Position numbers and translations under genes: made by a program. Below, piece after piece: positions 39,121 through 54,256 of a DNA stretch of 64,000 bases (positions are counted from its first letter, which is position 1; each line of letters begins with the position of its first letter). Origin of the DNA: Escherichia coli (GTDB lineage Bacteria > Pseudomonadota > Gammaproteobacteria > Enterobacterales > Enterobacteriaceae); NCBI RefSeq assembly GCF_030013205.1, contig NZ_CP122648.1, one strand, 5' to 3'. The notes below the pieces were generated by a model, which saw only the letters and a list, made by a program, of their open reading frames with translations, was not told the DNA's origin and made no database searches.

Positions 39121-39196
39121 GCCCGGATAGCTCAGTCGGTAGAGCAGGGGATTGAAAATCCCCGTGTCCTTGGTTCGATTCCGAGTCCGGGCACCA
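39121..39196 (+). tRNA. pheU: tRNA-Phe (GAA)
   Basis: GCCCGGATAGCTCAGTCGGTAGAGCAGGGGATTGAAAATCCCCGTGTCCTTGGTTCGATTCCGAGTCCGGGCACCA, 76 nt with GAA anticodon and CCA end. Confidence 0.97.
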
Positions 39197-39209
39197 AATT
39201 CATATCAAC

Positions 39210-39234
39210 GGACCTCCACGGAGGTCCGTTTTTC
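39210..39234 (+). terminator. pheU intrinsic terminator
   Basis: ggacctcc/ggaggtcc hairpin followed by GTTTTT immediately after the tRNA. Confidence 0.7.
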
Positions 39235-39393
39235 GTTTCAGAACACCATGATTTAAGTGTTCTTCCTCCAAATCAATTCTACCGAACTCAACCAAATTCT
39301 CCCCACATCAACCTCATTGTGTGGGTATAATTGCGGGTATACCCCAGTTCGACAGAATTTATACCCTCTTTAACGCATTCAGAAGGCTGAACT

Positions 39394-40656
39394 ATGGCAC
39401 TGACTGACGCAAAAATCCGGGCTGCAAAGCCCACTGACAAGGCTTATAAACTCACTGACGGGGCCGGCATGTTCCTGCTGGTTCATCCTAATGGTTCCCG
39501 TTACTGGCGTCTCCGCTATCGTATTCTGGGTAAGGAGAAGACTCTGGCACTTGGTGTGTATCCAGAAGTTTCTCTCTCCGAAGCTCGTACAAAACGGGAT
39601 GAGGCCCGAAAACTGATTTCAGAGGGGATTGACCCTTGCGAACAGAAAAGAGCTAAAAAAGTTGTCCCTGATTTACAGCTCTCTTTTGAACATATTGCAC
39701 GACGCTGGCATGCCAGTAATAAACAATGGGCACAATCACACAGCGATAAAGTACTCAAAAGCCTCGAGACACACGTTTTCCCCTTTATCGGCAACCGGGA
39801 TATCACAACACTCAGTACCCCGGACCTGCTTATCCCTGTTCGTGCTGCAGAAGCTAAACAAATTTATGAAATCGCCAGTCGTCTGCAGCAAAGAATATCT
39901 GCTGTAATGCGTTATGCCGTACAGTCTGGCATCATCAGATATAACCCGGCTCTGGATATGGCTGGTGCATTGACCACGGTAAAACGCCAGCATCGCCCTG
40001 CACTGGATCTTTCACGCCTGCCTGAACTTCTGTCGCGTATTGACGGTTATAAAGGCCAGCCTGTCACCCGACTGGCAGTTATGCTGAATTTACTGGTTTT
40101 TATTCGTTCCAGTGAACTCAGATACGCCCGCTGGTCTGAAATTGATATTGACAATGCCATGTGGACTATTCCAGCCGAACGCGAACCTCTGCCTGGCGTA
40201 AAATTCTCACACCGGGGCTCCAAGATGCGAACACCACATCTTGTGCCACTCAGCAAACAGGCTGTAGCCATACTGGCAGAACTACAGACATGGGCTGGTG
40301 AAAATGGTCTGATCTTTACGGGAGCACATGACCCGCATAAACCAATCAGTGAAAATACTGTAAATAAAGCCCTGAGGGTGATGGGGTATGACACAACCCA
40401 GGATGTCTGTGGCCATGGATTCCGTGCGATGGCATGTAGTGCGCTGATCGAATCAGGTTTGTGGTCCCGCGATGCTGTTGAACGTCAGATGAGCCATCAG
40501 GAACGTAACGGTGTACGCGCTGCGTATATCCATAAAGCCGAACATCTGGAAGAACGCCGGCTGATGCTACAGTGGTGGGCAGATTTTCTGAATGCGAACA
40601 GAGAGAAATGTATCAGTCCGTTTGATTATGCAAAGATCAACAATCCATTAAAATAG
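39394..40656 (+). CDS. P4-type tyrosine integrase
   Basis: 420-aa ORF MALTDAKIRAAKPTDKAYKLTDGAGMFLLVHPNGSRYWRLRYR with C-terminal catalytic region (HGFRAMA, Y in RAAYIH); 200 bp downstream of a tRNA gene; SD GAAGG. Confidence 0.92.
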   Translation: MALTDAKIRAAKPTDKAYKLTDGAGMFLLVHPNGSRYWRLRYRILGKEKTLALGVYPEVSLSEARTKRDEARKLISEGIDPCEQKRAKKVVPDLQLSFEHIARRWHASNKQWAQSHSDKVLKSLETHVFPFIGNRDITTLSTPDLLIPVRAAEAKQIYEIASRLQQRISAVMRYAVQSGIIRYNPALDMAGALTTVKRQHRPALDLSRLPELLSRIDGYKGQPVTRLAVMLNLLVFIRSSELRYARWSEIDIDNAMWTIPAEREPLPGVKFSHRGSKMRTPHLVPLSKQAVAILAELQTWAGENGLIFTGAHDPHKPISENTVNKALRVMGYDTTQDVCGHGFRAMACSALIESGLWSRDAVERQMSHQERNGVRAAYIHKAEHLEERRLMLQWWADFLNANREKCISPFDYAKINNPLK

Positions 40657-42385: not shown

Positions 42386-43714
42386 ATGAGCCACAGGGAA
42401 TTGTTCAGCGAATTTCTTGAAAATTTGAATCTTGACCTCAAACAGGCAAAAAAGATCAGCTATCACTATCGAAAAATAACCAAGTCATTAAATCTTGCGT
42501 TCAGAGGAACGAGTTCCCGGGTAGCAAACCGCTTGAAAGTGGGGTCAGTAGGCAGACATACCGCAATAAAAGGCATATCCGATCTGGATATGCTTTATAT
42601 TATGCCCCCCAATCAGTATGAATATTATAACCGTAAGGATAATGGTCAGTCTGCATTGCTTACAGATGTCAGAAACATTCTGGCGGAAGAATATCCTGAC
42701 CAGACTGTGAAAAAGGACAGACTGGTTGTTCAGATCATCTTTAAAAACTTTTATGTCGAGGTTCAACCTGTATTCAGACAGGATGATGACAGCTTTAAAT
42801 TCCCTGAAAGCTATAATGGAGGAGCATGGCGCATTACAAAACCTCTTCACGAAAAGGCGGCCATGACCGCATTTTCGCGAGATAAATCCAATAATCTGCG
42901 CAAGCTGTGTAAAATGATCAGAGCCTGGAAGAACCTGCATGGCGTCAATATGGGTGGCTTACTGATAGACACACTAGCGTATCGCTTTCTTTCATCAACA
43001 TCAGATTATGACAATACCGGAAATGGCAGCCTGGGAGCCCTCGCCAGAGACTTTTTTGAATATCTGTCAAATGAGGAGAGAAAGGAAAGGTATCTCGCGT
43101 TAGGCAGTAATCAGCATGTACGTGTTAAATCTCCCTGGTTTGGCCGGGCAGCGAAACACGCGTATGAATTATGTTGTGATGCCTTAGACGCTGAGGGGGC
43201 TGCCAGTGAAAATGACCGCTGGCGCAAAGTGTTCGGACGAGCCTTCCCCAGACGTAAAGTGGGTATTATGGAAGCCCGTCTTGGTCTGGAATCGCATGCG
43301 GCAGATGCTGTTCCCTGGACCGATACCGAAGAGTTTATAGAGGATAAATATCCGGTGGATATCAGGTACTCACTCAACCTTGACTGTACCGTAACCCAGG
43401 ATGGTTTCCCTCCCAGAAGCCTGAGGGAGATGCTTACCAGAAGATTCCGCCTCTCCGCTCGAAAATCTCTCCTTTTCCGGGCAGACTTGACAGAAATGGA
43501 GGCAGAGGAACCCTACACCGTTATGTGGAAGGTACTGAACGTGGGTGACGAAGCACGCAGAAGAAATATGATCCGGGGACAAATCGTTTCGGACGGCGGC
43601 TACTGTACGAAGAAAGAAACTACCGACTTCCGCGGAGATCACATGGTAGAATGCTATGTGATAAAAAATGAGGTTGTGGTTGCCCGGGCCCAGATTGAAG
43701 TTCCCATAAGCTGA
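42386..43714 (+). CDS. polymerase-beta-superfamily nucleotidyltransferase, SMODS/CD-NTase-like (candidate signalling nucleotide or oligonucleotide synthase)
   Basis: 442-aa ORF with SD AAAGGAA; NTase signature G-S-x10-D-L-D (GSVGRHTAIKGISDLD) near the N-terminus; stop overlaps the SD of the next gene. Confidence 0.6.
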   Translation: MSHRELFSEFLENLNLDLKQAKKISYHYRKITKSLNLAFRGTSSRVANRLKVGSVGRHTAIKGISDLDMLYIMPPNQYEYYNRKDNGQSALLTDVRNILAEEYPDQTVKKDRLVVQIIFKNFYVEVQPVFRQDDDSFKFPESYNGGAWRITKPLHEKAAMTAFSRDKSNNLRKLCKMIRAWKNLHGVNMGGLLIDTLAYRFLSSTSDYDNTGNGSLGALARDFFEYLSNEERKERYLALGSNQHVRVKSPWFGRAAKHAYELCCDALDAEGAASENDRWRKVFGRAFPRRKVGIMEARLGLESHAADAVPWTDTEEFIEDKYPVDIRYSLNLDCTVTQDGFPPRSLREMLTRRFRLSARKSLLFRADLTEMEAEEPYTVMWKVLNVGDEARRRNMIRGQIVSDGGYCTKKETTDFRGDHMVECYVIKNEVVVARAQIEVPIS

Positions 43715-43721
43715 GGTTTTT

Positions 43722-44297
43722 ATGACGCAATCAGAGATGCTGAAATTAATCGCCCGACATGGTTATAACGTTGGATTTGGCGCTAAGAAAAACTTTGCCA
43801 CCTATGATCTGATTTGTAAGGCATCCGGTTGGATTAGCTTTATTTCTCTTGCTGTCGGTGTGTTCGCCCTTTTTATTCCTGAGCTGGCCACAAACGTCAT
43901 TTCCGCGATATTAATTATATTTGGTGTTGCTACAATGTACATTCAGTTTTATGACTCGGAAAAGCAGAGTTATGAAAGTGCGGGGATTGAGCAGACCAAA
44001 ATTTTTAATGAACTTGAAGTCATCTACCGCAACGTAAAAAGCGATGCAAACTTTGACTATCAGCGTACACAACAATCCATCGACGCTATCATGTCCCGGT
44101 TTTACGGCACGGTCATCAGCAAACAGATCTTCGGAAGTAACTGGTACGCACATTATAAATTTTACTGTGAATTTGAAAAAGCATGGGTTGAAGAAGAGCT
44201 GAACCTGACACTGAAGGACAAAATCCCGCTTTCGCTCTGCTTTCTCGCCGGTCTGGCGATCATTTTTACTATAGCTGTCATCTGGAAAACGCCCTGA
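43722..44297 (+). CDS. 2-TM membrane protein, SLATT-like candidate effector
   Basis: 191-aa ORF starting 8 nt after the NTase stop; two adjacent hydrophobic helices (ISFISLAVGVFALFIPELATNVISAILIIFGVATMYI) plus a C-terminal hydrophobic segment. Confidence 0.6.
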   Translation: MTQSEMLKLIARHGYNVGFGAKKNFATYDLICKASGWISFISLAVGVFALFIPELATNVISAILIIFGVATMYIQFYDSEKQSYESAGIEQTKIFNELEVIYRNVKSDANFDYQRTQQSIDAIMSRFYGTVISKQIFGSNWYAHYKFYCEFEKAWVEEELNLTLKDKIPLSLCFLAGLAIIFTIAVIWKTP

Positions 44298-44848: not shown

Positions 44849-45574
44849 TTATGATGTACATAATACCTTAAAATTATCAACTAGCTGAGCATTAACCTCC
44901 ATCTGACTAATCCCCCATAATGCGGCTAACTGTTTCTCTGCAATCCCACTATCCCATGGCATTAGTGGGTCATTACGAAACTTAGCAAATGGCCCATCTG
45001 TTTCTGTAAGAATGCGTGATTTGGGTATTTTCAAAACTAAGGCCTTACCCTTTATTGTATCGAGCATAGCAGGCCCCACTGAGAACCAGCATCCTAAATC
45101 AATTGCCCTTTCAAGCTGCTTAGGTGTTCCAGTGAACCAATGCAATATTGCCACCCCATCGATATTTTCAATCTCATCAAGCACCGCTGATGCACTTCCC
45201 CGACTATGGATAGTCATAATCTTGCCACCAGCCCGATTTACACTGTTGAGAATGTGTCGGAACACTTTCAATTGAATATCCCAATGTTCTTTAAATCCCT
45301 GTCCACCATCAAGCCCTATTTCCCCTACATACTTAGTTTCCGAAAGCAATGAATCAAACAGGTCTAACTCATGCGATCTTTGATGCGCGATTTGAGGATG
45401 TAGCCCAAGAGCAGTTCGGATTCGTTGACTTTCTTTAGCCAATAAAGAAGTACCATGCCATGCTTTAGGTGTTGTTGTCACCGACAGAATATAAGTCCCT
45501 CGACGTTTACTTTCTTCAGCCACGAGGTCTGGCCGAGGATATAAGTCTAGATGACAGTGCATATCGATGCTCAT
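44849..45574 (-). CDS. qatD: QatD-like TatD-family metal-dependent hydrolase
   Basis: 241-aa ORF beginning MSIDMHCHLDLYP (TatD HxH motif); ATGA overlap with upstream qatC. Confidence 0.8.
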   Translation of the reverse strand: MSIDMHCHLDLYPRPDLVAEESKRRGTYILSVTTTPKAWHGTSLLAKESQRIRTALGLHPQIAHQRSHELDLFDSLLSETKYVGEIGLDGGQGFKEHWDIQLKVFRHILNSVNRAGGKIMTIHSRGSASAVLDEIENIDGVAILHWFTGTPKQLERAIDLGCWFSVGPAMLDTIKGKALVLKIPKSRILTETDGPFAKFRNDPLMPWDSGIAEKQLAALWGISQMEVNAQLVDNFKVLCTS

Positions 45575-46890
45575 ACTATGTTCTCACTCAGTAAATAGCT
45601 TTCAACCTCATCCAGGCCATCCTTAAATACTTGCTTGAAATTATCAAATTCTGCCGTAGGCAAAGGGCCACTTTTGGCAATCCATGTACCTATTTTCAAA
45701 GTCGATTTCTGCGTGATCGCAATCCTAAGGGCGATCAGGTCGTCCCTGCGATCTATTTCATTCATTACTTTAGCTAAGGACTGGAAAATATATTCAACAT
45801 CTCTACTAATTCCCCCTGCATGAAGTGATGCTCGTCGAATGATACACGGTATACATACCCCACATTGCTGCCCCATTCGTTTCCAATGACTGCAGGATAC
45901 TGTACTTTCCACAATTTTAGATAAGAGCTGCTTATTTGAACATTCGGAGATCATTTTTCCTTTTGTCTTAAACTGATATGGATTGATTATTTGACAAGAA
46001 ATACCGAGCGCATCAAAGATCTTTTGTATGCTCGTAATAAAATGTGGATGTGTTGTTCGTGTGCTCAGCGAACCTATCCGCCGTGGAGTAAGTGGTGCAT
46101 TTAATGAGATAAATCCATTTTCAGGTACGAACAAATCAATCTTTTCTTGTTGAGATATCTCTTGTACGGCACAAGCACCTACGGCCGCAAAGGCAAGAAA
46201 ATTGAGGCTACGAGTTCGCATCGTAATATCAGTCACGCCTTGATAAATGTGTGGGTCAGCATTAATCTCAAAGCGCGAAAATTGGCCACTTAATTTTTCA
46301 GCAATCTGATCTTGACGAGACTTATCCCCCTTATAAGCATGACTAACCAAAAGTGGAGCGCGCCCTGCAGCCAGAAGATCTATTGCACCAATAGCTGAAT
46401 CCAGACCTCCTGAAAATAGGCTGACACAGTCAAGCCCTTTTAGCTTAATCAGACGATGCCTTGAATGCTGGCTATAAGGCTCTGGCGGTGCATAACCATC
46501 GTCACAAAATTCGAAATCCCAGATGTCTCCACTAAGAAAATGCAAAGCACTCTCAAGTTCTTTCTTTAGACTAATCCATCTGGATGGTTCATGAAGGGGG
46601 AGTCGTAACGACAATTGGCGGGTCCAACCATCCTCGGAACTTTCACGCTGAACGAAAGTATCTGCTGCAGTTACTGCTAATGCAACACTCAGAAAATCCA
46701 TGACCTTAGCTGGAAGCTGTACTCCCAAACGTCTGATCCGATCAATCGCAGGATTCCCGATAACAGATATATCTCCGCGCCTCTGACCACTTAATCCATA
46801 TAGCTGAACAGGTAACACTTTCTCACTTGCTGGCGGCAAATGGTGATGTTTATGATGGAAAACTAATTGTGTCACTGGTATGCCTCCCAT
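45571..46890 (-). CDS. qatC: QatC-like QueC-family PP-loop ATPase
   Basis: 439-aa ORF with PP-loop SGGLDS (DCVSLFSGGLDSAIGAIDLL); overlaps qatB by 19 nt. Confidence 0.8.
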   Translation of the reverse strand: MGGIPVTQLVFHHKHHHLPPASEKVLPVQLYGLSGQRRGDISVIGNPAIDRIRRLGVQLPAKVMDFLSVALAVTAADTFVQRESSEDGWTRQLSLRLPLHEPSRWISLKKELESALHFLSGDIWDFEFCDDGYAPPEPYSQHSRHRLIKLKGLDCVSLFSGGLDSAIGAIDLLAAGRAPLLVSHAYKGDKSRQDQIAEKLSGQFSRFEINADPHIYQGVTDITMRTRSLNFLAFAAVGACAVQEISQQEKIDLFVPENGFISLNAPLTPRRIGSLSTRTTHPHFITSIQKIFDALGISCQIINPYQFKTKGKMISECSNKQLLSKIVESTVSCSHWKRMGQQCGVCIPCIIRRASLHAGGISRDVEYIFQSLAKVMNEIDRRDDLIALRIAITQKSTLKIGTWIAKSGPLPTAEFDNFKQVFKDGLDEVESYLLSENIV

Positions 46891-47624
46891 TCTTGCCAGG
46901 CCTCAATAATGGCCTGACGTTCAATTTTTACCATTTGGTTTCGTGTGAACGATCTTATGTTACCGGCAAGTTTTGGTGCCATATGTTTATCAACAACAAC
47001 TTTAATCAATTCCCGGAGTTCAATTTCTGCATGAATTGCCTTTGAAGGTGTATCTGCTTTGTTCCATGCCCTATTAGAATCCATTACCATCTGAAGGAAA
47101 ATACTTTCCGCTAGATAACCAATCATTGTGTCAACAATCACACCATCAGTTATTTTTTGAGGATCGAAAATTTCTACGCCATCAAGAGCCTCCACTAAAG
47201 CATGGTTCATGGCCGCACAGATCTTTTCTGAGTCACCATCCTGTGATGTTAAAGCTTGAGCAATAGTTGATATTGCTATTTCGCATGGAAGGCCTGCCAA
47301 ACTGCCCAAATCGATGCTTGGTTCTCCGGGAGCCGAAGGCATTCCCACTAAAGCCCCAAATAATTCGGCCCCAGCTTGCGTGACACTCCCTAATCGCCGA
47401 GCAGCGTTACTGCTCCCTCCGGAGGCTTTTCGCGCGTAGTGCCCTATGGCTTTTCTGAAATCTGCTCGATTTCCATTTGATACCGCATTTCCCAACGATT
47501 CTCGAAATGGCGCAAACCTCCTTTCTTGCGGCGAGGGTAACGGTTGCTGTGGCTGATCATCAGCCCATGGTGGAACCAGCGGAGAGCCACCTCCTGGACC
47601 TTTACTTGATTGTGATGTTCCCAT
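46872..47624 (-). CDS. qatB: QatB-like protein (no recognisable domain)
   Basis: 250-aa ORF whose ATG overlaps the qatA stop (TAATG); position between KAP NTPase and QueC-like genes. Confidence 0.7.
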   Translation of the reverse strand: MGTSQSSKGPGGGSPLVPPWADDQPQQPLPSPQERRFAPFRESLGNAVSNGNRADFRKAIGHYARKASGGSSNAARRLGSVTQAGAELFGALVGMPSAPGEPSIDLGSLAGLPCEIAISTIAQALTSQDGDSEKICAAMNHALVEALDGVEIFDPQKITDGVIVDTMIGYLAESIFLQMVMDSNRAWNKADTPSKAIHAEIELRELIKVVVDKHMAPKLAGNIRSFTRNQMVKIERQAIIEAWQEWEAYQ

Positions 47625-49408
47625 TAAGCGTCCTTATTCCATTGTTCATCTTTTAATGCTGCAGTCATCCACGCTGGTCGTTTCATCCCCAACTGTAATT
47701 CCTGTAGATAACGAATTAATATGCTGGCTGCATCTGTTGAGTAGCGGGCCAACAGACATGCGCCGGAAAAGCCTCTGGGCTTACGATCCCAATCTGATAC
47801 CTGCCGTAACTGGTTAATTAAACCTTCCATTACAGGTATTTGCTCCTCACGAGGAAGTGCTTTCAAAAGGTTTTCTGCTGTAGGAGAACTAGTGTTTTTC
47901 AATTCAATTAGTGCATTTAGTACTTCCCGTCCAGATGGCGATAAACCAACCACATATGCACCTATTGGCATAGTTTCTCGGGACAGATATATGGCGGCCC
48001 TTAAGTCAATCCCACCAAGACGAGGTTCAAGTTGGGCCCATTGACTGATGAAAGATTTAGTCGTTGGACTATCAGTCCATGTCTTTGGTGCATCAGTAGG
48101 TATTTGACCGCCATTATCGTCAAGCTGTTTAAGTATCTGGGGAACACCTTGTTCAATATCCACGAGATGATATAAATCAGCGGTGCCATCCACTCCAACA
48201 CAGCGTTCAAAAATTACTAGCTTAGTAATAATTGCTTCATCCAAAGGCATTGCTCGTCGCTTCGCAATTTGAGATCGCATTTTCACAACATTCAACAAGC
48301 GTTTAACGATCCTGGGATTACCATGAATAATTGGAGAGTTGGCTAAAATGGGAGCAATACGGTCAGCACGCGCAAACGCCAGCGCGAGGTTGCTATCATC
48401 CGCTTCACCAGTCATTTTTAAGGCCTCCTGACGTGAGATTGGTTCATCTTTCCAGGATTGCTGTAACGCCTTCTCTAAGCCCTCACGGAGCATAGTTATT
48501 TTTTCGCCTTCTAAGCCATGTTCAATGGCATAAAGCATGAACAGATACGAACGGATCTCACGGACCCCAGCCTTAGGCACCCGAATAGGAACCTGGATTA
48601 GCTTATCCAGATAATCTATTTGATGGCGCTGTGATGCCCCTTTGAAGTAATCAGCCACAGAAGAGCGAATCATGTCCTCATCTGCTGCAATAATAAAGGC
48701 TGTATTAGTCAAGAAAAGGAATAGCCTGATAGCTTCAAGTGTATGGATAGCATTGGCAGGGAGACAGCGGTCTAGGTTATCTATTACCACAATGAGTGGC
48801 TTTCCAAGTTCTTCTAGAATTTCCCCATATTCCTTACGAAAGGCATCAATCTGCTGAGGGGGGCTTTTTTTTGTTTGTGGTTTAATCAAACCACAAGCAG
48901 TTTCTTTACCTTCTTTAGCTATATTGCCTAAAGCCTCATACTCTTCCTGACTCTGGATGCCATCGGTGATATTTCTTAATGCACCAATCCCCCTAGAAAG
49001 CAAACCGCCAGTAGGTAATCCTGCCATTAAAGCTGTACCCTCAGCTAGTAATCCCATAGCTCTAAAACCATCAACTCGACTAAGGAGTCTCTTAGTTTTT
49101 GATATAAGGGTAGAATTACCTTCAGCAGCTTTTGTCAATTCTGTAGCGATGACTTCAAGAAGTGCGGCACGGGCGTCGTCGTACCCCTGATAGAGCCAAG
49201 AGTCAAAATTGATAACAATCCAATCTTTGTCGTCTTGCTCAAGTTTTTGCTCTATCAGTTTTAACAGAGAGGATTTACCTGCCCCCCAGTTTCCAAAAAT
49301 TCCGATAGATACTGGTAACATATCTTTCGTGGTAAGTACATCCACGGCTAACTGAGATACTTCACCAAAATTTAGGTAGTCTTCTGATGACTCTTTGTCT
49401 GACCACAT
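47624..49408 (-). CDS. qatA: QatA-like KAP-family P-loop NTPase
   Basis: 594-aa ORF with Walker A GNWGAGKSS near the N-terminus and Walker B-like VVIDNLDRC; SD AAGGA upstream of ATG at 49408. Confidence 0.8.
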   Translation of the reverse strand: MWSDKESSEDYLNFGEVSQLAVDVLTTKDMLPVSIGIFGNWGAGKSSLLKLIEQKLEQDDKDWIVINFDSWLYQGYDDARAALLEVIATELTKAAEGNSTLISKTKRLLSRVDGFRAMGLLAEGTALMAGLPTGGLLSRGIGALRNITDGIQSQEEYEALGNIAKEGKETACGLIKPQTKKSPPQQIDAFRKEYGEILEELGKPLIVVIDNLDRCLPANAIHTLEAIRLFLFLTNTAFIIAADEDMIRSSVADYFKGASQRHQIDYLDKLIQVPIRVPKAGVREIRSYLFMLYAIEHGLEGEKITMLREGLEKALQQSWKDEPISRQEALKMTGEADDSNLALAFARADRIAPILANSPIIHGNPRIVKRLLNVVKMRSQIAKRRAMPLDEAIITKLVIFERCVGVDGTADLYHLVDIEQGVPQILKQLDDNGGQIPTDAPKTWTDSPTTKSFISQWAQLEPRLGGIDLRAAIYLSRETMPIGAYVVGLSPSGREVLNALIELKNTSSPTAENLLKALPREEQIPVMEGLINQLRQVSDWDRKPRGFSGACLLARYSTDAASILIRYLQELQLGMKRPAWMTAALKDEQWNKDA

Positions 49409-49539
49409 TTTTATATCCTTTACATCACCAATTTTTACGTCATTGAGTAAACTACAGGTTTGATAAAACCAACTCTGTTCAGGTGGGCAAATTCAGTGTA
49501 CCACTTCATCAATAATCCAATATGATGACTGCTATAGAT

Positions 49540-50742
49540 CTATTTTTTAAAGAATGAAATAAGCTTTCTTATCCCAGTCCATATTTTCCTATCAGAATCC
49601 GAAGGGTTAAATTCGCTCTTGTCAAAATCAGCAACCTCAGCAACCTCAGCAACCTCAGCAACCTCAGCAACCTCAGCAACCTCAGCAACCTCAGCAACCT
49701 CAGCAACCTCAGCAACCTCAGCAACCTCAGCAACCTCAGCAACCTCAGCAACCTCAGCAAGGTTTATTCTATTTTGATGAGCTGTCAAATGTTCTTTGTT
49801 AATTTCATCTCTAATTAGCTGTTCTTTTTCTATGCTGTAGTTTTTGTCATTATAAGTCACATCAAAATCATCTAAGAAAACGATATAAATCAATTTAAAA
49901 AAACTAGTCTTAAATAAAAAACTATCGCACTCATCAGGAAAACCAAAAAAGAAAACATTAAGATATTTGGTTGCTTTGCGCTTGTCTTTTAGTCCATTAT
50001 AATACTTATTTGCTTCTGCTCTTTGTTTTTCATACTCACTACAGAAAAAACTCTTTTTACTTTCATCCCATTCTGAAGCATCAATTTCAAGTTTATATGC
50101 TTGTTTGGTACCTTTCTTTCTGGCTAAAAAAGTAAGGTAATATCTATTCGAATTTATCTCCAGCCGTATATTAGATTGAATTTTACCAAAATAAATTGCT
50201 GGCTTATTATATCTAATTCCTTCTTTATAGATGATTAGTTGAAAAGTATCTTTATAAGTTCTAACTCCATAAGGGGGAATTGATAATGGTTCATAGAGAT
50301 TATCTCCATTAATGTAGTAGTCTACTACCGGTTTGATGCTTGAAGATGACACAGGGTGTACTTTACCTCCCAAATCTTTTTCATCATCTCGCGTCTGTTT
50401 GATAATTCTTCTGCCAGAAGAGTCGTAATTTCTTTCAGACACATCAAGTTTCAGAAGAGATATAGCTAATGCCGGTGGTGAATTATGCTTTTTATTATTC
50501 TTTGAGTTACACTTATTTTTACTCTTAGGATCATGAATCTTACATCCCGGCCTATGAGTCTCTTTATATCGAAAGTATGATTGATTTAAATTTATTTCTT
50601 TGAAGCTACATGGAGTAGCGGGTATCCTACATTTGTCATACGGGCATTCAAAAGTGGTTGTTCGTATATAAAGATCATCCATTTCCCGAAGATCATGACC
50701 ATGAACAATTTCACCACTAACAGAATCTCTTGCTATTGTCAC
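49540..50742 (-). CDS. uncharacterised cysteine-rich protein with C-terminal (AEV)n repeat
   Basis: 400-aa ORF from GTG at 50742 preceded by a perfect SD (AAGGAG, 5-nt spacer); N-terminal CPYDKC...C...C cysteine cluster; AT-rich; ends 131 bp upstream of qatA on the same strand. Confidence 0.7.
   Translation of the reverse strand: MTIARDSVSGEIVHGHDLREMDDLYIRTTTFECPYDKCRIPATPCSFKEINLNQSYFRYKETHRPGCKIHDPKSKNKCNSKNNKKHNSPPALAISLLKLDVSERNYDSSGRRIIKQTRDDEKDLGGKVHPVSSSSIKPVVDYYINGDNLYEPLSIPPYGVRTYKDTFQLIIYKEGIRYNKPAIYFGKIQSNIRLEINSNRYYLTFLARKKGTKQAYKLEIDASEWDESKKSFFCSEYEKQRAEANKYYNGLKDKRKATKYLNVFFFGFPDECDSFLFKTSFFKLIYIVFLDDFDVTYNDKNYSIEKEQLIRDEINKEHLTAHQNRINLAEVAEVAEVAEVAEVAEVAEVAEVAEVAEVAEVAEVAEVAEVADFDKSEFNPSDSDRKIWTGIRKLISFFKK
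49629..49760. repeat. perfect 9-bp tandem repeat, about 14.7 copies (unit AGCAACCTC on + strand)
   Basis: Uninterrupted identical units read directly; in-frame within the 400-aa ORF, encoding Ala-Glu-Val repeats. Confidence 0.97.
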
Positions 50743-50980
50743 ACAATCTCCTTTGATAAAAATTAATAGATTCTAATTTCATACCAAGGCTAATTTAAAT
50801 AAAGGCTATTTAAGAGAAAAACAAGTCAGCCTGACAGACATATCCCCTCCCATGGCAATATGCCGCTATTTCGCGTTTTTTTTCACGCCATAATGCGTTT
50901 CAAGGTAGCGAATATCTTCGATTGCCCATGGTGTGCGCATTCTTTTGGGTTTATTTTCCATTACCATGTTTTATCAGCCA

Positions 50981-51235
50981 TCATGGCAGCCTCTCCGGTT
51001 TGCCAGCGTGTTCCACCTGATAACGATTAATCAGCTGATTCAGTGCCATTTCAGCCTGTTTTTGCTGCTGTTCACTGCCATTCTGGTTACGGGCTTCATC
51101 ATAGCGACGTAACTGCTCTTCCGCCGGGATATGCCGGTTAAAAGCCTGCATGATGCCAAACACCTCTGTTTTCAGTTCACTGACCGTCATGTATTTTCCC
51201 CGCTGTTCATCCAGACGGTTCAGGCGCTCAGCCAT
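50981..51235 (-). CDS. hypothetical small protein
   Basis: 84-aa ORF, Gln/Glu-rich helical; no family recognised. Confidence 0.4.
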   Translation of the reverse strand: MAERLNRLDEQRGKYMTVSELKTEVFGIMQAFNRHIPAEEQLRRYDEARNQNGSEQQQKQAEMALNQLINRYQVEHAGKPERLP

Positions 51236-53456: not shown

Positions 53457-53870
53457 TCACTCCTGGTCCCGGAGCAAATCTGGCTGGTATCTGTAAACAT
53501 ACTTCGTACATGCCGCTCTGCAATAAATCCCCGTATCACAGGTTTCACAGAACTTCTTCCCATGAAAAAGCCTCTCGCACATCACGCAATGCCACTCCAG
53601 CACGACAGGTAATGGCGATAAAAACATCGCCATATCATCAATGTAAGGATGGGATTTTTCCGGATTCAGCACCACGCAGGCCGCCTTCTGTTGCGCGCTC
53701 AGGGCATGTAAATCATGCTCAAACCACGCCCCCTGAGCATCTGTCTGCAAAATCAACCGGCCACGACAGGAAAGGCAGAAACACTGCCGGATATTTCTGC
53801 TGAGCGCAGAGTTGGCACTGATAATGTGCTCACCCGGCGTGATCCCCAGCCCCATTTTTATGCCGTTCAT
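53457..53870 (-). CDS. hypothetical cysteine-rich (zinc-ribbon-like) protein
   Basis: 137-aa ORF with CxxC pairs (CFCLSC, CVMCERL, CETCDTGIYCRAAC); ATGA-type 4-nt overlap with upstream gene. Confidence 0.5.
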   Translation of the reverse strand: MNGIKMGLGITPGEHIISANSALSRNIRQCFCLSCRGRLILQTDAQGAWFEHDLHALSAQQKAACVVLNPEKSHPYIDDMAMFLSPLPVVLEWHCVMCERLFHGKKFCETCDTGIYCRAACTKYVYRYQPDLLRDQE

Positions 53871-54256
53871 CCTGCTACCACCTCCTCACTGAAGCGCCCG
53901 GTCTGGCAGTGTGTGCAGTACTGCTCCCCATAATAATCGTGGTGACATTGTCTGCAGTACCAGCTGGCTTTACGTACTACGGGTAAGGCATCCGGTACGA
54001 ATTGCTGCAGACGTTTAATCAAACGTATTTCTCTGCGTTCCGGTCTGACATAAGGGCACTCATGACCGTGCTCAGTCAGCCCATCGTCAGTGTGTTCAAA
54101 CCAGGGACGTTCAGTGTCGTATTGCGGGTGGTATCTGAGTGCACTGCCACAAAGATGACAGGTATAACGATCATATGGCGCAGTCTGTGCGGTACGGGCA
54201 CCGGTCAGACGTCCGTTGCCATCAAATGCGAGAAAAGATTTTGCGTACATAGTCAT
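53867..54256 (-). CDS. hypothetical cysteine/histidine-rich (zinc-ribbon-like) protein
   Basis: 129-aa ORF with CHLCGS, HECPY, CRQCHHDYYGEQYCTHCQTG motifs. Confidence 0.5.
   Translation of the reverse strand: MTMYAKSFLAFDGNGRLTGARTAQTAPYDRYTCHLCGSALRYHPQYDTERPWFEHTDDGLTEHGHECPYVRPERREIRLIKRLQQFVPDALPVVRKASWYCRQCHHDYYGEQYCTHCQTGRFSEEVVAG

What the first reader, a model, noticed from the sequence alone, without database searches (positions are those of the whole stretch)
49540..50742. AT-rich cysteine-rich protein with a perfect (AEV)n tandem repeat immediately upstream of the Qat operon
Seen: a 400-aa ORF on the same strand as qatA and 131 bp upstream of it, with a perfect SD, an N-terminal Cys cluster, markedly AT-rich composition, and about 14.7 identical copies of a 9-bp unit encoding Ala-Glu-Val. 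Perfect identity of all units implies recent expansion or ongoing slipped-strand variation; because the unit is 9 bp, copy-number change alters protein length without frameshifting. Inference: a defence-associated or accessory gene with a length-variable spacer or linker region; no family recognised, so it may be undescribed.
Basis: partly seen in the sequence, partly recalled or inferred. Interest (0 to 1): 0.7.

Follow-up and report, generated by a model that had tools for sequence, protein, structure and literature searches.

The report
Variable-length tether in an Avs8B-family protein
The gene upstream of the Qat defence operon encodes a long form of the little-known Avs8B (PD-λ-4B) protein family, and its perfect 9-base repeat, which differs in copy number between E. 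coli strains from about 9 to 66, codes for a flexible spacer between a zinc-and-barrel core and a probable membrane-binding tail; the gene does not appear to be part of Qat.

Summary
There is a 400-aa ORF at 49540..50742 on the minus strand, 131 bp upstream of qatA. It has 32-37% GC, a Cys cluster and 14.8 perfect copies of a 9-bp unit encoding (AEV)14.

The length-variable linker idea is supported. In 77 of 83 complete E. coli genomes the locus differs from the window only by multiples of 9 bp. Copy number ranges from 8.8 to 65.8, with 41 alleles. The five intact alleles read base by base keep perfect units and the tail.

"No family" is only partly right. Pfam and NCBIfam find nothing, but profile comparison places the core in the PADLOC family PD-Lambda-4_B, also called Avs8B (hhalign E 3.7e-38). 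A preprint reports that family as dispensable for Avs8 defence.

Qat linkage is confined to one E. coli island lineage. Elsewhere the gene sits beside Hachiman, a DO-GTPase system or type I R-M, or in the backbone of an integrative mobilizable element. Its function is still inferred.

The parts
49540..50742 (-). Complete CDS, 400 aa, GTG start. A long-form member of the PD-Lambda-4_B / Avs8B family.
   Evidence: ORF list and translation. Annotated as hypothetical protein WP_000150684.1 in ETEC1748. hhalign against short Avs8B-like proteins gives probability 100%, E 3.7e-38. dN/dS between diverged alleles is 0.12-0.15.
50746..50751 (-). Shine-Dalgarno-like AAGGAG, 3 nt before the GTG start.
   Evidence: Read directly from the sequence.
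50533..50742 (-). Residues 1-70: N-terminal zinc-ribbon-like domain with a CCHC site (C33, C38, H63, C67).
   Evidence: The four residues are invariant in 53 members and align with C31, C34, H61, C65 of the short forms. pLDDT is about 94. One member gives a weak CoiA_N match at 7e-3.
50356..50532 (-). Residues 71-129: basic, low-confidence inter-domain segment containing the conserved NSPPAxxISLL motif.
   Evidence: pLDDT 56-72. Net positive charge in 44 of 53 members. Motif seen in alignment A2.
49831..50355 (-). Residues 130-304: beta-rich core with OB-fold-like topology (three strands, a long helix, two strands).
49759..49830 (-). Residues 305-328: helix leading from the core into the repeat.
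   Evidence: DSSP assigns helix 305-336 in the model.
49628..49760 (-). Perfect 9-bp VNTR, (GCTGAGGTT)14.8, encoding (AEV)14. It forms the acidic disordered spacer.
   Evidence: Tandem Repeats Finder. pLDDT below 50. Copy number is 8.8-65.8 in 77 complete E. coli genomes. All units are identical in alleles with n = 14, 23, 24, 36 and 61.
49546..49599 (-). Residues 382-399, RKIWTGIRKLISFFKK: C-terminal cationic amphipathic helix, proposed to target the membrane.
   Evidence: Predicted helix 382-399. Hydrophobic moment is 0.86 with net charge +4. All 25 long-form members whose true C-terminus is present share this kind of tail.
49409..49539 (-). 131-bp gap between this gene and qatA. No terminator-like site was found.
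   Evidence: Terminator scan found none, and promoter-like hits were at chance level. The fold of this segment is no more stable than shuffled sequence, z = +1.55.
44849..49408 (-). qatA-qatB-qatC-qatD. This is context, not part of the feature.
   Evidence: PADLOC matches to QatA, QatB, QatC and QatD with E from 0 to 6e-97.

Best explanation
**What is shown**
- The ORF is a real gene under purifying selection.
- It belongs to the Avs8B (PD-lambda-4B) family. The conserved core of about 300 aa is a CCHC zinc-ribbon domain followed by a basic, OB-fold-like barrel.
- It is a 'long form'. After the core come a disordered spacer and a short cationic amphipathic helix at the very C-terminus.
- The (AEV)n tract is that spacer.
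- The spacer is encoded by a perfect 9-bp microsatellite, so copy number changes in whole units. This alters spacer length from about 27 to about 198 residues among sequenced E. coli without ever breaking the frame or losing the tail.

**What is inferred**
- Replication slippage is the likely cause of the copy-number changes.
- The core binds nucleic acid.
- The tail holds the protein on the cytoplasmic face of the inner membrane, in the way the MinD and FtsA tails do.
- The protein therefore acts on DNA close to the membrane, meaning DNA that is entering or leaving the cell (mobilised or conjugative DNA, or injected phage DNA).
- The spacer sets how far the core can reach from the membrane.

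**Relation to Qat**
- The gene is an independent cargo or backbone gene of mobile islands, not a component of Qat. Its position next to qatA reflects one island lineage.

**Why spacer length varies**
- Most likely the length is loosely constrained and the variation is driven by mutation. It is less likely to be a tuned switch.
For: **Gene reality and selection**
- The ORF and tail are intact in all five alleles read base by base (n = 14-61).
- 77 of 83 records differ from the window by exact multiples of 9 bp.
- dN/dS of the core is 0.12-0.15.

**Family**
- The query's own hmmscan hit to PD-Lambda-4_B is weak (E 4e-6).
- Distant family members match that model over its full length, with E from 2e-28 to 3e-92.
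- Profile-profile comparison gives probability 100%, E 3.7e-38, over residues 1-289.

**Core fold**
- C33, C38, H63 and C67 are invariant.
- AlphaFold models have pLDDT 82 for the whole protein and 94.8 for the core.
- The core and the inter-domain segment carry net positive charge in 48 and 44 of 53 members.

**Long-form architecture**
- 25 long-form members with a true C-terminus have linkers of 54-207 aa with no sequence conservation.
- Their last 22 residues have net charge +1 to +8 and a hydrophobic moment of 0.52-0.93. By the same measure the FtsA tail scores 0.78 and the MinD tail 0.38; those two sequences were entered from memory.

**Repeat variation**
- Copy number spans 8.8-65.8 with 41 alleles.
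- Pig ETEC strains with 100% identical flanks differ, from 14.8 to 59.8 copies.
- Linked isolates share alleles: 32F4, 33F4 and 33E all have 44.8, and ETEC4070 and ETEC4071 both have 22.8.
- The same linker position holds (PE)n from a perfect GCCAGA repeat in O157:H7, with roughly 12-51 copies across complete genomes. (PE)n also occurs in Xenorhabdus, Yersinia and Pectobacterium.
- Aliivibrio has (AEV)n from GCTGAAGTT units.

**Independence from Qat**
-.
- Avs8B is dispensable for Avs8 defence (bioRxiv 10.1101/2025.07.02.662641).
Against: - No experiment shows DNA binding, zinc binding or membrane association for any family member.
- The tail helix has low model confidence (pLDDT about 52-55). 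It could instead be a protein-docking peptide like the SSB C-terminal tip.
- About half of the family, the short forms including canonical Avs8B, have no tail. Membrane tethering therefore cannot be the family's core function.
- Within E. coli almost every AEV-type copy does sit next to qatA on the same strand with no terminator between them. Co-transcription and a lineage-specific functional link are not excluded.
- Six of 83 records carry 1-bp indels. They may be real pseudogenes or assembly errors.
Confidence: 0.55

Rival explanations
1. The gene is a fifth, accessory or regulatory component of this Qat operon. On this reading it would be a sensor or repressor co-transcribed with qatABCD, and the repeat would modulate Qat activity.
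For: - The gene is on the same strand as qatA, 131 bp upstream, with no terminator-like site in the gap.
- About 95% of the E. coli records listed have the KAP NTPase gene directly adjacent.
- Other family members also sit beside P-loop NTPase conflict systems: Avs8A (a STAND NTPase) and a DO-GTPase/GAP1 cluster.
- Avs8B being dispensable is what one would expect of a repressor.
Against: - No Qat gene lies within 7-10 kb in 11 loci outside the E. coli AEV-type island, ten of them from other genera or metagenomes.
- The gene stays with the island backbone when Qat is replaced or interrupted (L007, L008, L009).
- It matches none of the PADLOC Qat models.
- Orientation and distance to the neighbouring system differ in every context.
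- No helix-turn-helix or known regulator domain was detected.
Confidence: 0.1
2. The gene is a stand-alone anti-phage or exclusion gene, and its repeat is a true contingency locus. Populations would keep a mix of spacer lengths because different lengths work against different invaders, so the variation would be selected for.
For: - The gene repeatedly lies in defence islands, beside Qat with CBASS, Hachiman, type I R-M, and Avs8A.
- Perfect repeats at the same position recur with different units, 9-bp AEV and 6-bp PE.
- AEV appears again in a homologue only 30% identical, which hints at selection for a repetitive acidic spacer.
- No allele with fewer than about 9 units was seen among the 77 in-frame records.
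Against: - Avs8B alone gave no protection against lambda.
- The protein has no effector domain.
- Linker length and sequence are unconstrained across the family, at 54-207 aa. This fits tolerance better than tuning.
- A high slippage rate alone explains the polymorphism. If the PE repeat is O157-10, its measured rate is 1.8e-3 per generation (PMC3777172).
- Epidemiologically linked isolates share alleles.
Confidence: 0.15
3. The gene is a maintenance or transfer gene of integrative mobilizable elements, for example a membrane-proximal single-strand-DNA-binding helper for mobilisation or establishment. On this reading it is a passenger remnant in the pheU island and has no role in defence.
For: - Six loci share one module: E. 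coli O157:H7, an IMG/VR contig, two Enterobacter, Pantoea and Erwinia.
- In that module the gene is the last of a conserved set: two tyrosine recombinases, a 510-611-aa protein and one or two small proteins.
- In the three fully flanked loci a MobP-type relaxase follows on the opposite strand.
- The OB-like fold and zinc site recall single-strand-DNA binders.
- Only 1 of 2.9 million viral contigs carries the gene, so it is not a phage gene.
Against: - Other contexts have no recombinase or relaxase nearby (L005, L012).
- The window island shares no other gene with that module.
- The relaxase matches are below the curated cut-offs.
- No functional data exist.
Confidence: 0.2

Closest known systems
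PD-lambda-4B, also called Avs8B (PADLOC model PDLC03992; Vassallo et al. 2022; Nagy et al. preprint 2025)
   Same: The core is homologous over about 290 residues, including the CCHC site. Both lie in E. coli defence islands next to a P-loop NTPase gene. Neither has a known function.
   Different: The window protein is only about 20-25% identical to the short forms. It adds an approximately 100-aa extension made of the VNTR spacer and an amphipathic tail. Its neighbour is QatA (a KAP NTPase), not Avs8A (Mrr-STAND). Its own hmmscan hit to the PADLOC model is weak and partial (E 4e-6).
MLVA locus O157-10 / TR2 / Vhec1 of E. coli O157:H7
   Same: The O157:H7 homologue has a perfect 6-bp repeat with about 12-51 copies at the equivalent linker position. 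This matches what is published for O157-10: a 6-bp unit, the only locus with alleles above 22 units, 21-45 repeats in one survey, and the most mutable locus (PMC3777172, PMC3519732, PMC3768571). The PulseNet VNTR-9 primers map 1.1 kb away.
   Different: Identity is not proven, because the primer sequences for O157-10 were not available. The window gene carries a 9-bp AEV unit, for which no typing scheme or paper was found.
SSB and T4 gp32 type proteins: OB fold, disordered linker, short conserved C-terminal tip
   Same: The order of parts is the same: a nucleic-acid-binding-like barrel, a low-complexity linker whose length varies between species, and a short conserved terminal peptide. gp32 also has a Cys3-His zinc site (established knowledge).
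FtsA and MinD membrane-targeting sequences
   Same: Both have a C-terminal amphipathic, positively charged helix of about 11-18 residues, joined to a globular domain by a flexible linker. The hydrophobic moment is comparable to that of the FtsA tail.
   Different: The globular domains are unrelated. Membrane binding has not been tested here. The linker is far longer and more variable.
In-frame tandem repeats and contingency loci of bacterial surface proteins (for example GBS alpha C protein, simple-sequence contingency loci)
   Same: A perfect short tandem repeat inside a coding region produces protein size variants by slippage or recombination.
   Different: There is no signal peptide and no transmembrane segment, so the protein is cytoplasmic. 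The unit is a multiple of three, so there is no on/off phase switching. There is no evidence of immune or phage selection on length.

Membership tests
PD-Lambda-4_B / Avs8B protein family | Sequence homology to the family profile across the core of about 300 aa | tested here: met
   hhalign of the ORF's subfamily against short Avs8B-like proteins gives probability 100%, E 3.7e-38, over residues 1-289. Family members found with the ORF as query match PDLC03992 over its full length with E 2e-28 to 3e-92. The direct hit of the ORF itself is weak (E 4e-6, residues 209-288).
PD-Lambda-4_B / Avs8B protein family | Conserved Cys-Cys-His-Cys site near the N-terminus | tested here: met
   C33, C38, H63 and C67 are invariant in 53 sequences. 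They align with the invariant C31, C34, H61 and C65 of the short forms.
PD-lambda-4 / Avs8 two-gene system | Adjacent Avs8A gene (Mrr nuclease plus STAND NTPase) | tested here: not met
   The neighbours are QatA-D and a VasL pseudogene. There is no STAND or Mrr gene.
Qat system (QatABCD) | Match to one of the four Qat component models | tested here: not met
   The ORF's only PADLOC match is PD-Lambda-4_B. The four downstream genes match QatA-D.
Qat system (QatABCD) | Co-occurrence with Qat genes across taxa | tested here: not met
   tblastn with QatA-D finds nothing in 11 loci outside the E. coli AEV-type island that have 7-10 kb flanks. Some E. coli copies lack an adjacent qatA.
Qat system (QatABCD) | Co-transcription with, or functional requirement for, Qat | not testable with these tools
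   Only a negative terminator scan and chance-level promoter hits are available.
OB-fold nucleic-acid-binding proteins | Five-stranded barrel with a helix between strands 3 and 4, and significant structural similarity to known OB folds | tested here: inconclusive
OB-fold nucleic-acid-binding proteins | Binding of single- or double-stranded nucleic acid | not testable with these tools
   The only support is indirect: net positive charge of the core and the inter-domain segment.
Proteins with a C-terminal amphipathic membrane-targeting helix (MinD/FtsA type) | Terminal cationic amphipathic helix after a flexible linker | tested here: met
   Predicted helix 382-399. Hydrophobic moment 0.86 and net charge +4. 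The same type of tail occurs in all 25 long forms with a true C-terminus.
Proteins with a C-terminal amphipathic membrane-targeting helix (MinD/FtsA type) | Actual membrane association that depends on the helix | not testable with these tools
   No localisation data are available.
Hypervariable coding VNTR | Perfect tandem repeat with copy-number polymorphism between otherwise near-identical strains | tested here: met
   Tandem Repeats Finder reports 100% identity. 41 alleles span 8.8-65.8 copies. Strains with 100% identical flanks differ.
Phase-variable contingency locus | Repeat changes switch expression on and off by frameshift or promoter spacing | tested here: not met
   The unit is 9 bp, so all whole-unit changes stay in frame. 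The frameshifted copies result from 1-bp indels, not unit changes.
MLVA locus O157-10 / TR2 / Vhec1 (applies to the O157:H7 homologue, not to the window gene) | Amplified by the published O157-10 primers | not tested
Unit size and allele range fit.

The most novel reading that the evidence does not exclude
The repeat is an evolvable molecular ruler. A DNA-binding sensor is anchored to the inner membrane by its tail, and slippage continually generates subpopulations whose sensor reaches different distances (a contour length of about 10 to 70 nm) from the membrane. Selection by incoming phage or plasmid DNA maintains this diversity. This would make it a contingency locus that tunes geometry rather than switching expression. 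The repeated independent appearance of perfect acidic repeats (AEV, PE) at the same site in this family would be the signature of that selection.
Probability: 0.1. Interest if true: 0.75.

Novelty: new variant of a known kind. Interest (0 to 1): 0.45.

Why it matters
- **Annotation of Qat loci.** The gene upstream of qatA in about 250 complete E. coli genomes, including CFT073, should not be counted as part of Qat.
- **A first structural picture of Avs8B/PD-lambda-4B.** This orphan family currently rides along in defence-system catalogues. The analysis gives it a zinc-ribbon plus OB-like core, and identifies an undescribed long form with a spacer and a probable membrane-binding tail.
- **A protein-level reading of a typing marker.** The family's spacer has repeatedly become a perfect microsatellite. 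In O157:H7 this is probably the notoriously unstable MLVA marker O157-10. If so, a typing artefact known for 20 years corresponds to length changes in a tether.
- **A practical assembly problem.** Short-read assemblies break at this repeat, so most database copies are 'partial'. Long-read assemblies introduce 1-bp errors that turn the gene into an annotated pseudogene.
- **Clear experiments.** The model makes localisation, DNA binding and repeat-number series directly testable.

Tried and rejected
**Searches that found nothing useful**
- Pfam on the protein and on 53 family members found nothing, apart from one weak CoiA_N hit at 7e-3.
- NCBIfam found nothing.
- PHROGs gave only low-complexity matches to the repeat region.
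- A profile search of PDB sequences found nothing.
- Literature searches for the 9-mer unit and for the AEVAEVAEV peptide found nothing relevant.

**Fold searches**
- Foldseek against AFDB50 returned only uncharacterised relatives. Some are auto-named 'procyclic acidic repetitive protein' because of PE repeats, and one is labelled WYL. The WYL label was not pursued.

**Ideas tested and dropped**
- *Phage-encoded gene.* Only 1 hit in 2.9 million viral contigs, and that one is the O157-type element beside a prophage.
- *The O157 PE repeat is PulseNet VNTR-9.* The VNTR-9 primers map 1.1 kb downstream. Attempts to obtain O157-10 primers failed.
- *The two 'zinc ribbon' genes further along the island share the N-terminal domain.* BLASTP shows no similarity.
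- *The window island is a remnant of the recombinase/relaxase element.* No shared genes were found.
- *Secreted or surface protein with antigenic size variation.* The N-terminus is hydrophilic and there is no hydrophobic segment.
- *The family alignment A1 as a query for locus scans.* It was too diverse to use. The narrower A2 recovered only 5 species-representative genomes, so the context survey remains small.
Full report
**1. The observation**

- A 400-codon ORF runs from 50742 to 49540 on the minus strand and starts with GTG.
- It ends 131 bp before the next gene on the same strand. That gene and the three after it match the PADLOC models QatA, QatB, QatC and QatD, with E-values from 0 to 6e-97.
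- Tandem Repeats Finder reports one array at 49628-49760 with period 9, 14.8 copies, 100% matches and no indels. On the coding strand this is (GCTGAGGTT)14, which encodes (AEV)14.
- GC content is 0.32-0.37 across the ORF, 0.41-0.47 in Qat and about 0.50 in the flanks.
- The ribosome-binding motif AAGGAG is present but lies only 3 nt from the GTG.
- Homologues in other genera begin with the same MT(I/V)A(K/R)D, which supports the start codon.
- The window is identical across the 1.5-kb stretch compared to the chromosome of pig ETEC strain ETEC1748. There the gene is annotated as hypothetical protein WP_000150684.1. It lies in an island at a tRNA-Phe gene, together with a P4-type integrase and a CBASS pair.

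**2. The repeat varies between strains**

A 1.5-kb query around the gene matches 254 of 5,426 complete E. coli genomes, nearly all at 99% identity or more.
- I took the span of the match in 83 records that cover the whole query. In 77 of them the span differs from the window by an exact multiple of 9 bp.
- This corresponds to 8.8-65.8 copies, with a median of 34.8 and 41 different alleles.
- Pig ETEC strains whose flanks are 100% identical to the window carry 14.8, 21.8, 22.8, 25.8, 27.8, 31.8, 40.8, 50.8 and 59.8 copies.
- Isolates from one farm (32F4, 33F4, 33E) share 44.8 copies. ETEC4070 and ETEC4071 share 22.8. The tract therefore changes quickly between strains but not within a clone over short times.
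- I read five alleles base by base, with n = 14, 23, 24, 36 and 61. Two of them have flanks diverged by about 3%. Every unit is the identical 9-mer, the frame is kept and the C-terminal tail is intact.
- The six records that are not multiples of 9 were examined in three cases. All three carry 1-bp indels: two in the T run inside a unit and one upstream. RefSeq marks two of them as frameshifted. These are either sequencing errors or real pseudogenes.
- The core is under purifying selection. dN/dS is 0.12-0.15 between diverged E. coli and E. albertii alleles.

**3. The protein family**

Pfam, NCBIfam and a PDB sequence search find nothing. PADLOC gives one weak hit to PD-Lambda-4_B (E 4e-6, residues 209-288).
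- An exhaustive phmmer search with residues 1-328 finds only 68 cluster representatives among 1.84 billion proteins. Some of the shortest or weakest hits are fragments or chance matches.
- Nine of the distant members of about 300 aa, and one longer member, match PD-Lambda-4_B over its whole length with E from 2e-28 to 3e-92.
- A profile-profile comparison of the ORF's own subfamily with those short proteins gives probability 100%, E 3.7e-38, over residues 1-289. The ORF is therefore a divergent member of the PD-lambda-4B family, recently renamed Avs8B.
- Nagy et al. (bioRxiv 10.1101/2025.07.02.662641) state that Avs8B has no similarity to described proteins. They also report that Avs8A alone protects against lambda as well as the full operon does, and that Avs8B gives no protection without Avs8A.

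**4. Anatomy**

In an alignment of 53 members, four residues are invariant: C33, C38, H63 and C67. This pattern is typical of a zinc site.
- AlphaFold2 with this alignment gives mean pLDDT 82. Residues 1-70 and 130-330 score above 90. The basic segment 71-129 scores 56-72, apart from a short stretch around the conserved NSPPAxxISLL motif (residues 91-100) that scores 92. The repeat scores below 50. A terminal helix at 382-399 scores about 52-55.
- A model of residues 128-304 alone reaches pLDDT 94.8.
- The core and the inter-domain segment carry net positive charge in 48 and 44 of the 53 members.
- Nucleic-acid binding is an inference from the zinc-ribbon-plus-OB combination and this charge. 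It has not been shown.

**5. Long and short forms**

The family splits into two forms.
- Short forms of about 290-320 aa end just after the core. Canonical Avs8B is of this type.
- Long forms continue with a non-conserved, low-complexity stretch of 54-207 aa and end in a short basic, hydrophobic helix.
- In all 25 long forms whose true C-terminus is present, the last 22 residues have net charge +1 to +8 and an 11-residue hydrophobic moment of 0.52-0.93. Examples are KKGFWARLAARLGIW, GMRKIISWLRKFIRK and, in the window protein, RKIWTGIRKLISFFKK (0.86, charge +4).
- By the same measure the E. coli FtsA tail scores 0.78 and the MinD tail 0.38. I entered those two sequences from memory.
- The (AEV)n tract lies exactly in this spacer.
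- The most economical reading is a globular core joined by a disordered tether to a membrane-binding helix. A protein-docking peptide, as in SSB, is the alternative.

**6. Other repeats at the same site**

- Homologues 50-58% identical from O157:H7, Xenorhabdus, Yersinia and Pectobacterium carry (PE)n at the same position.
- In O157:H7 strain E32511 this is a perfect (GCCAGA)21.7.
- Among the O157:H7 and other complete E. coli genomes listed, the span changes in steps of 6 bp, which gives about 12 to 51 copies.
- Published MLVA work describes one O157:H7 locus with this behaviour, called O157-10, TR2 or Vhec1. It has a 6-bp unit, is the only locus with alleles above 22 units, showed 21-45 repeats in one survey, and has the highest mutation rate at 1.8e-3 per generation. 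PulseNet dropped it for excess variability (PMC3777172, PMC3768571, PMC3519732).
- The PulseNet VNTR-9 primers map 1.1 kb downstream of the gene.
- I could not obtain the O157-10 primers, so the identification is probable but unverified.
- A 30%-identical homologue in Aliivibrio fischeri again has (AEV)n, from GCTGAAGTT units. The unit differs from the E. coli unit by one synonymous base and is followed by its own amphipathic tail.
- Repeat type therefore does not follow core phylogeny. I cannot explain this.

**7. Relation to Qat**

Within E. coli the AEV-type gene is nearly always next to qatA. The exceptions are informative.
- In CU42ET-1, an IS3 element follows the gene.
- In strain 2D, an IS5 element has replaced qatA and qatB.
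- In 95_0274, the downstream cargo is a small ORF, a Bro-N protein and a methyltransferase-helicase pair.
- In the first two of these strains the other side keeps the VasL pseudogene, and 2D and 95_0274 keep the DUF4222 gene of the island backbone.

Outside this island lineage the neighbours differ each time:
- nothing relevant in Xenorhabdus;
- type I R-M in Providencia;
- Hachiman, divergently oriented, in a 6.9-Mb genome;
- a GASH/DO-GTPase/GAP1 cluster in a metagenome contig.

Six loci share a conserved module: O157:H7, an IMG/VR contig, two Enterobacter, Pantoea and Erwinia. The module consists of two tyrosine recombinases, a 510-611-aa protein and one or two small proteins, followed by this gene. 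In the three fully flanked loci a MobP-type relaxase follows on the opposite strand, although its matches fall below the curated cut-offs.

tblastn with QatA-D finds no Qat gene in any of these 11 loci. The window island shares no other gene with the recombinase module. No terminator-like site lies in the 131-bp gap, and promoter-like matches are at chance level. Read-through into qatA is therefore possible, but there is no comparative support for a functional unit.

**8. Conclusion**

*Shown*
- The ORF is a functional gene of the Avs8B family, in a long form.
- Its 9-bp repeat encodes the spacer between the core and the terminal helix.
- The spacer length varies widely between strains in whole units.
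- The gene's association with Qat is lineage-specific.

*Inferred*
- The protein binds zinc and nucleic acid.
- The tail tethers it to the membrane.
- It acts on DNA at the membrane.
- Variation in spacer length is largely mutation-driven and tolerated.

The main alternatives are a Qat accessory or regulator, a stand-alone defence gene with a selected contingency repeat, and a mobile-element transfer or establishment function.

I rate it a new variant of a known (but uncharacterised) kind, of moderate interest.

Noticed in passing
L011:7001-8245 (E. coli O157:H7 E32511); Sakai NC_002695.2 about 3,491,673-3,492,490: The O157:H7 homologue (about 58% identical) carries a perfect 6-bp repeat, GCCAGA x21.7, encoding (PE)21, at the same linker position. 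Copy number ranges from about 12 to 51 across complete genomes. It is probably the hypervariable MLVA locus O157-10/TR2/Vhec1. The PulseNet VNTR-9 primers map 1.1 kb downstream.
   Followed up: partly
L020:70-1200 (Aliivibrio fischeri): A homologue only 30% identical again has (AEV)n, from GCTGAAGTT units that differ from the E. coli unit by one synonymous base. The tract is unresolved in the assembly. Repeat type does not follow core phylogeny.
   Followed up: partly
L022, L023, L024, L011, L003, L015: A conserved module appears in six loci: two tyrosine recombinases, a 510-611-aa protein and one or two small proteins, followed by the Avs8B-like gene. In the three fully flanked loci a MobP-type relaxase follows on the opposite strand. 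It looks like an integrative mobilizable element. Its cargo includes weak DS1-like anti-phage matches (L022) and HxsB/HxsC radical-SAM genes (L024).
   Followed up: partly
window 42386-44297 (+): A type I CBASS pair lies between the integrase and Qat. It consists of an oligonucleotide cyclase (442 aa, PADLOC E 9e-177) and a 2TM/SLATT effector (191 aa).
   Followed up: no
window 39121-40656: A tRNA-Phe gene is followed by a P4-type tyrosine integrase, which marks the island boundary. IS4 and IS66 fragments follow at about 40.8-42.3 kb.
   Followed up: no
window 50981-51235 (-): An 84-aa ORF is the remnant of a VasL-domain (type VI secretion) gene. It stays linked to the Avs8B-like gene in E. 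coli strains CU42ET-1 and 2D, where Qat has been lost or interrupted; strain 95_0274 carries a different type VI remnant at that position.
   Followed up: partly
L016, L017, L018 (E. coli 300709, CREC-629, FCI23): These copies carry 1-bp indels, two in the T run of a repeat unit and one upstream. The gene is annotated as frameshifted in two of the three 'complete' genomes. The cause is likely long-read error, but real pseudogenes are possible. Short-read assemblies break at the repeat, so most database copies of the protein are 'partial'.
   Followed up: partly
window 53457-54256 (-): Two adjacent genes annotated 'putative zinc ribbon protein' (137 and 129 aa) lie in the island backbone. The 137-aa protein, the only one compared, shows no BLASTP similarity to the zinc domain of the ORF.
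   Followed up: yes
L012:1179-6421: A metagenome contig has a GASH / DO-GTPase2 / DO-GTPase1 / GAP1-N1 conflict-system cluster directly upstream of a long-form family member. This is the third context in which the family sits next to a P-loop NTPase system.
   Followed up: no
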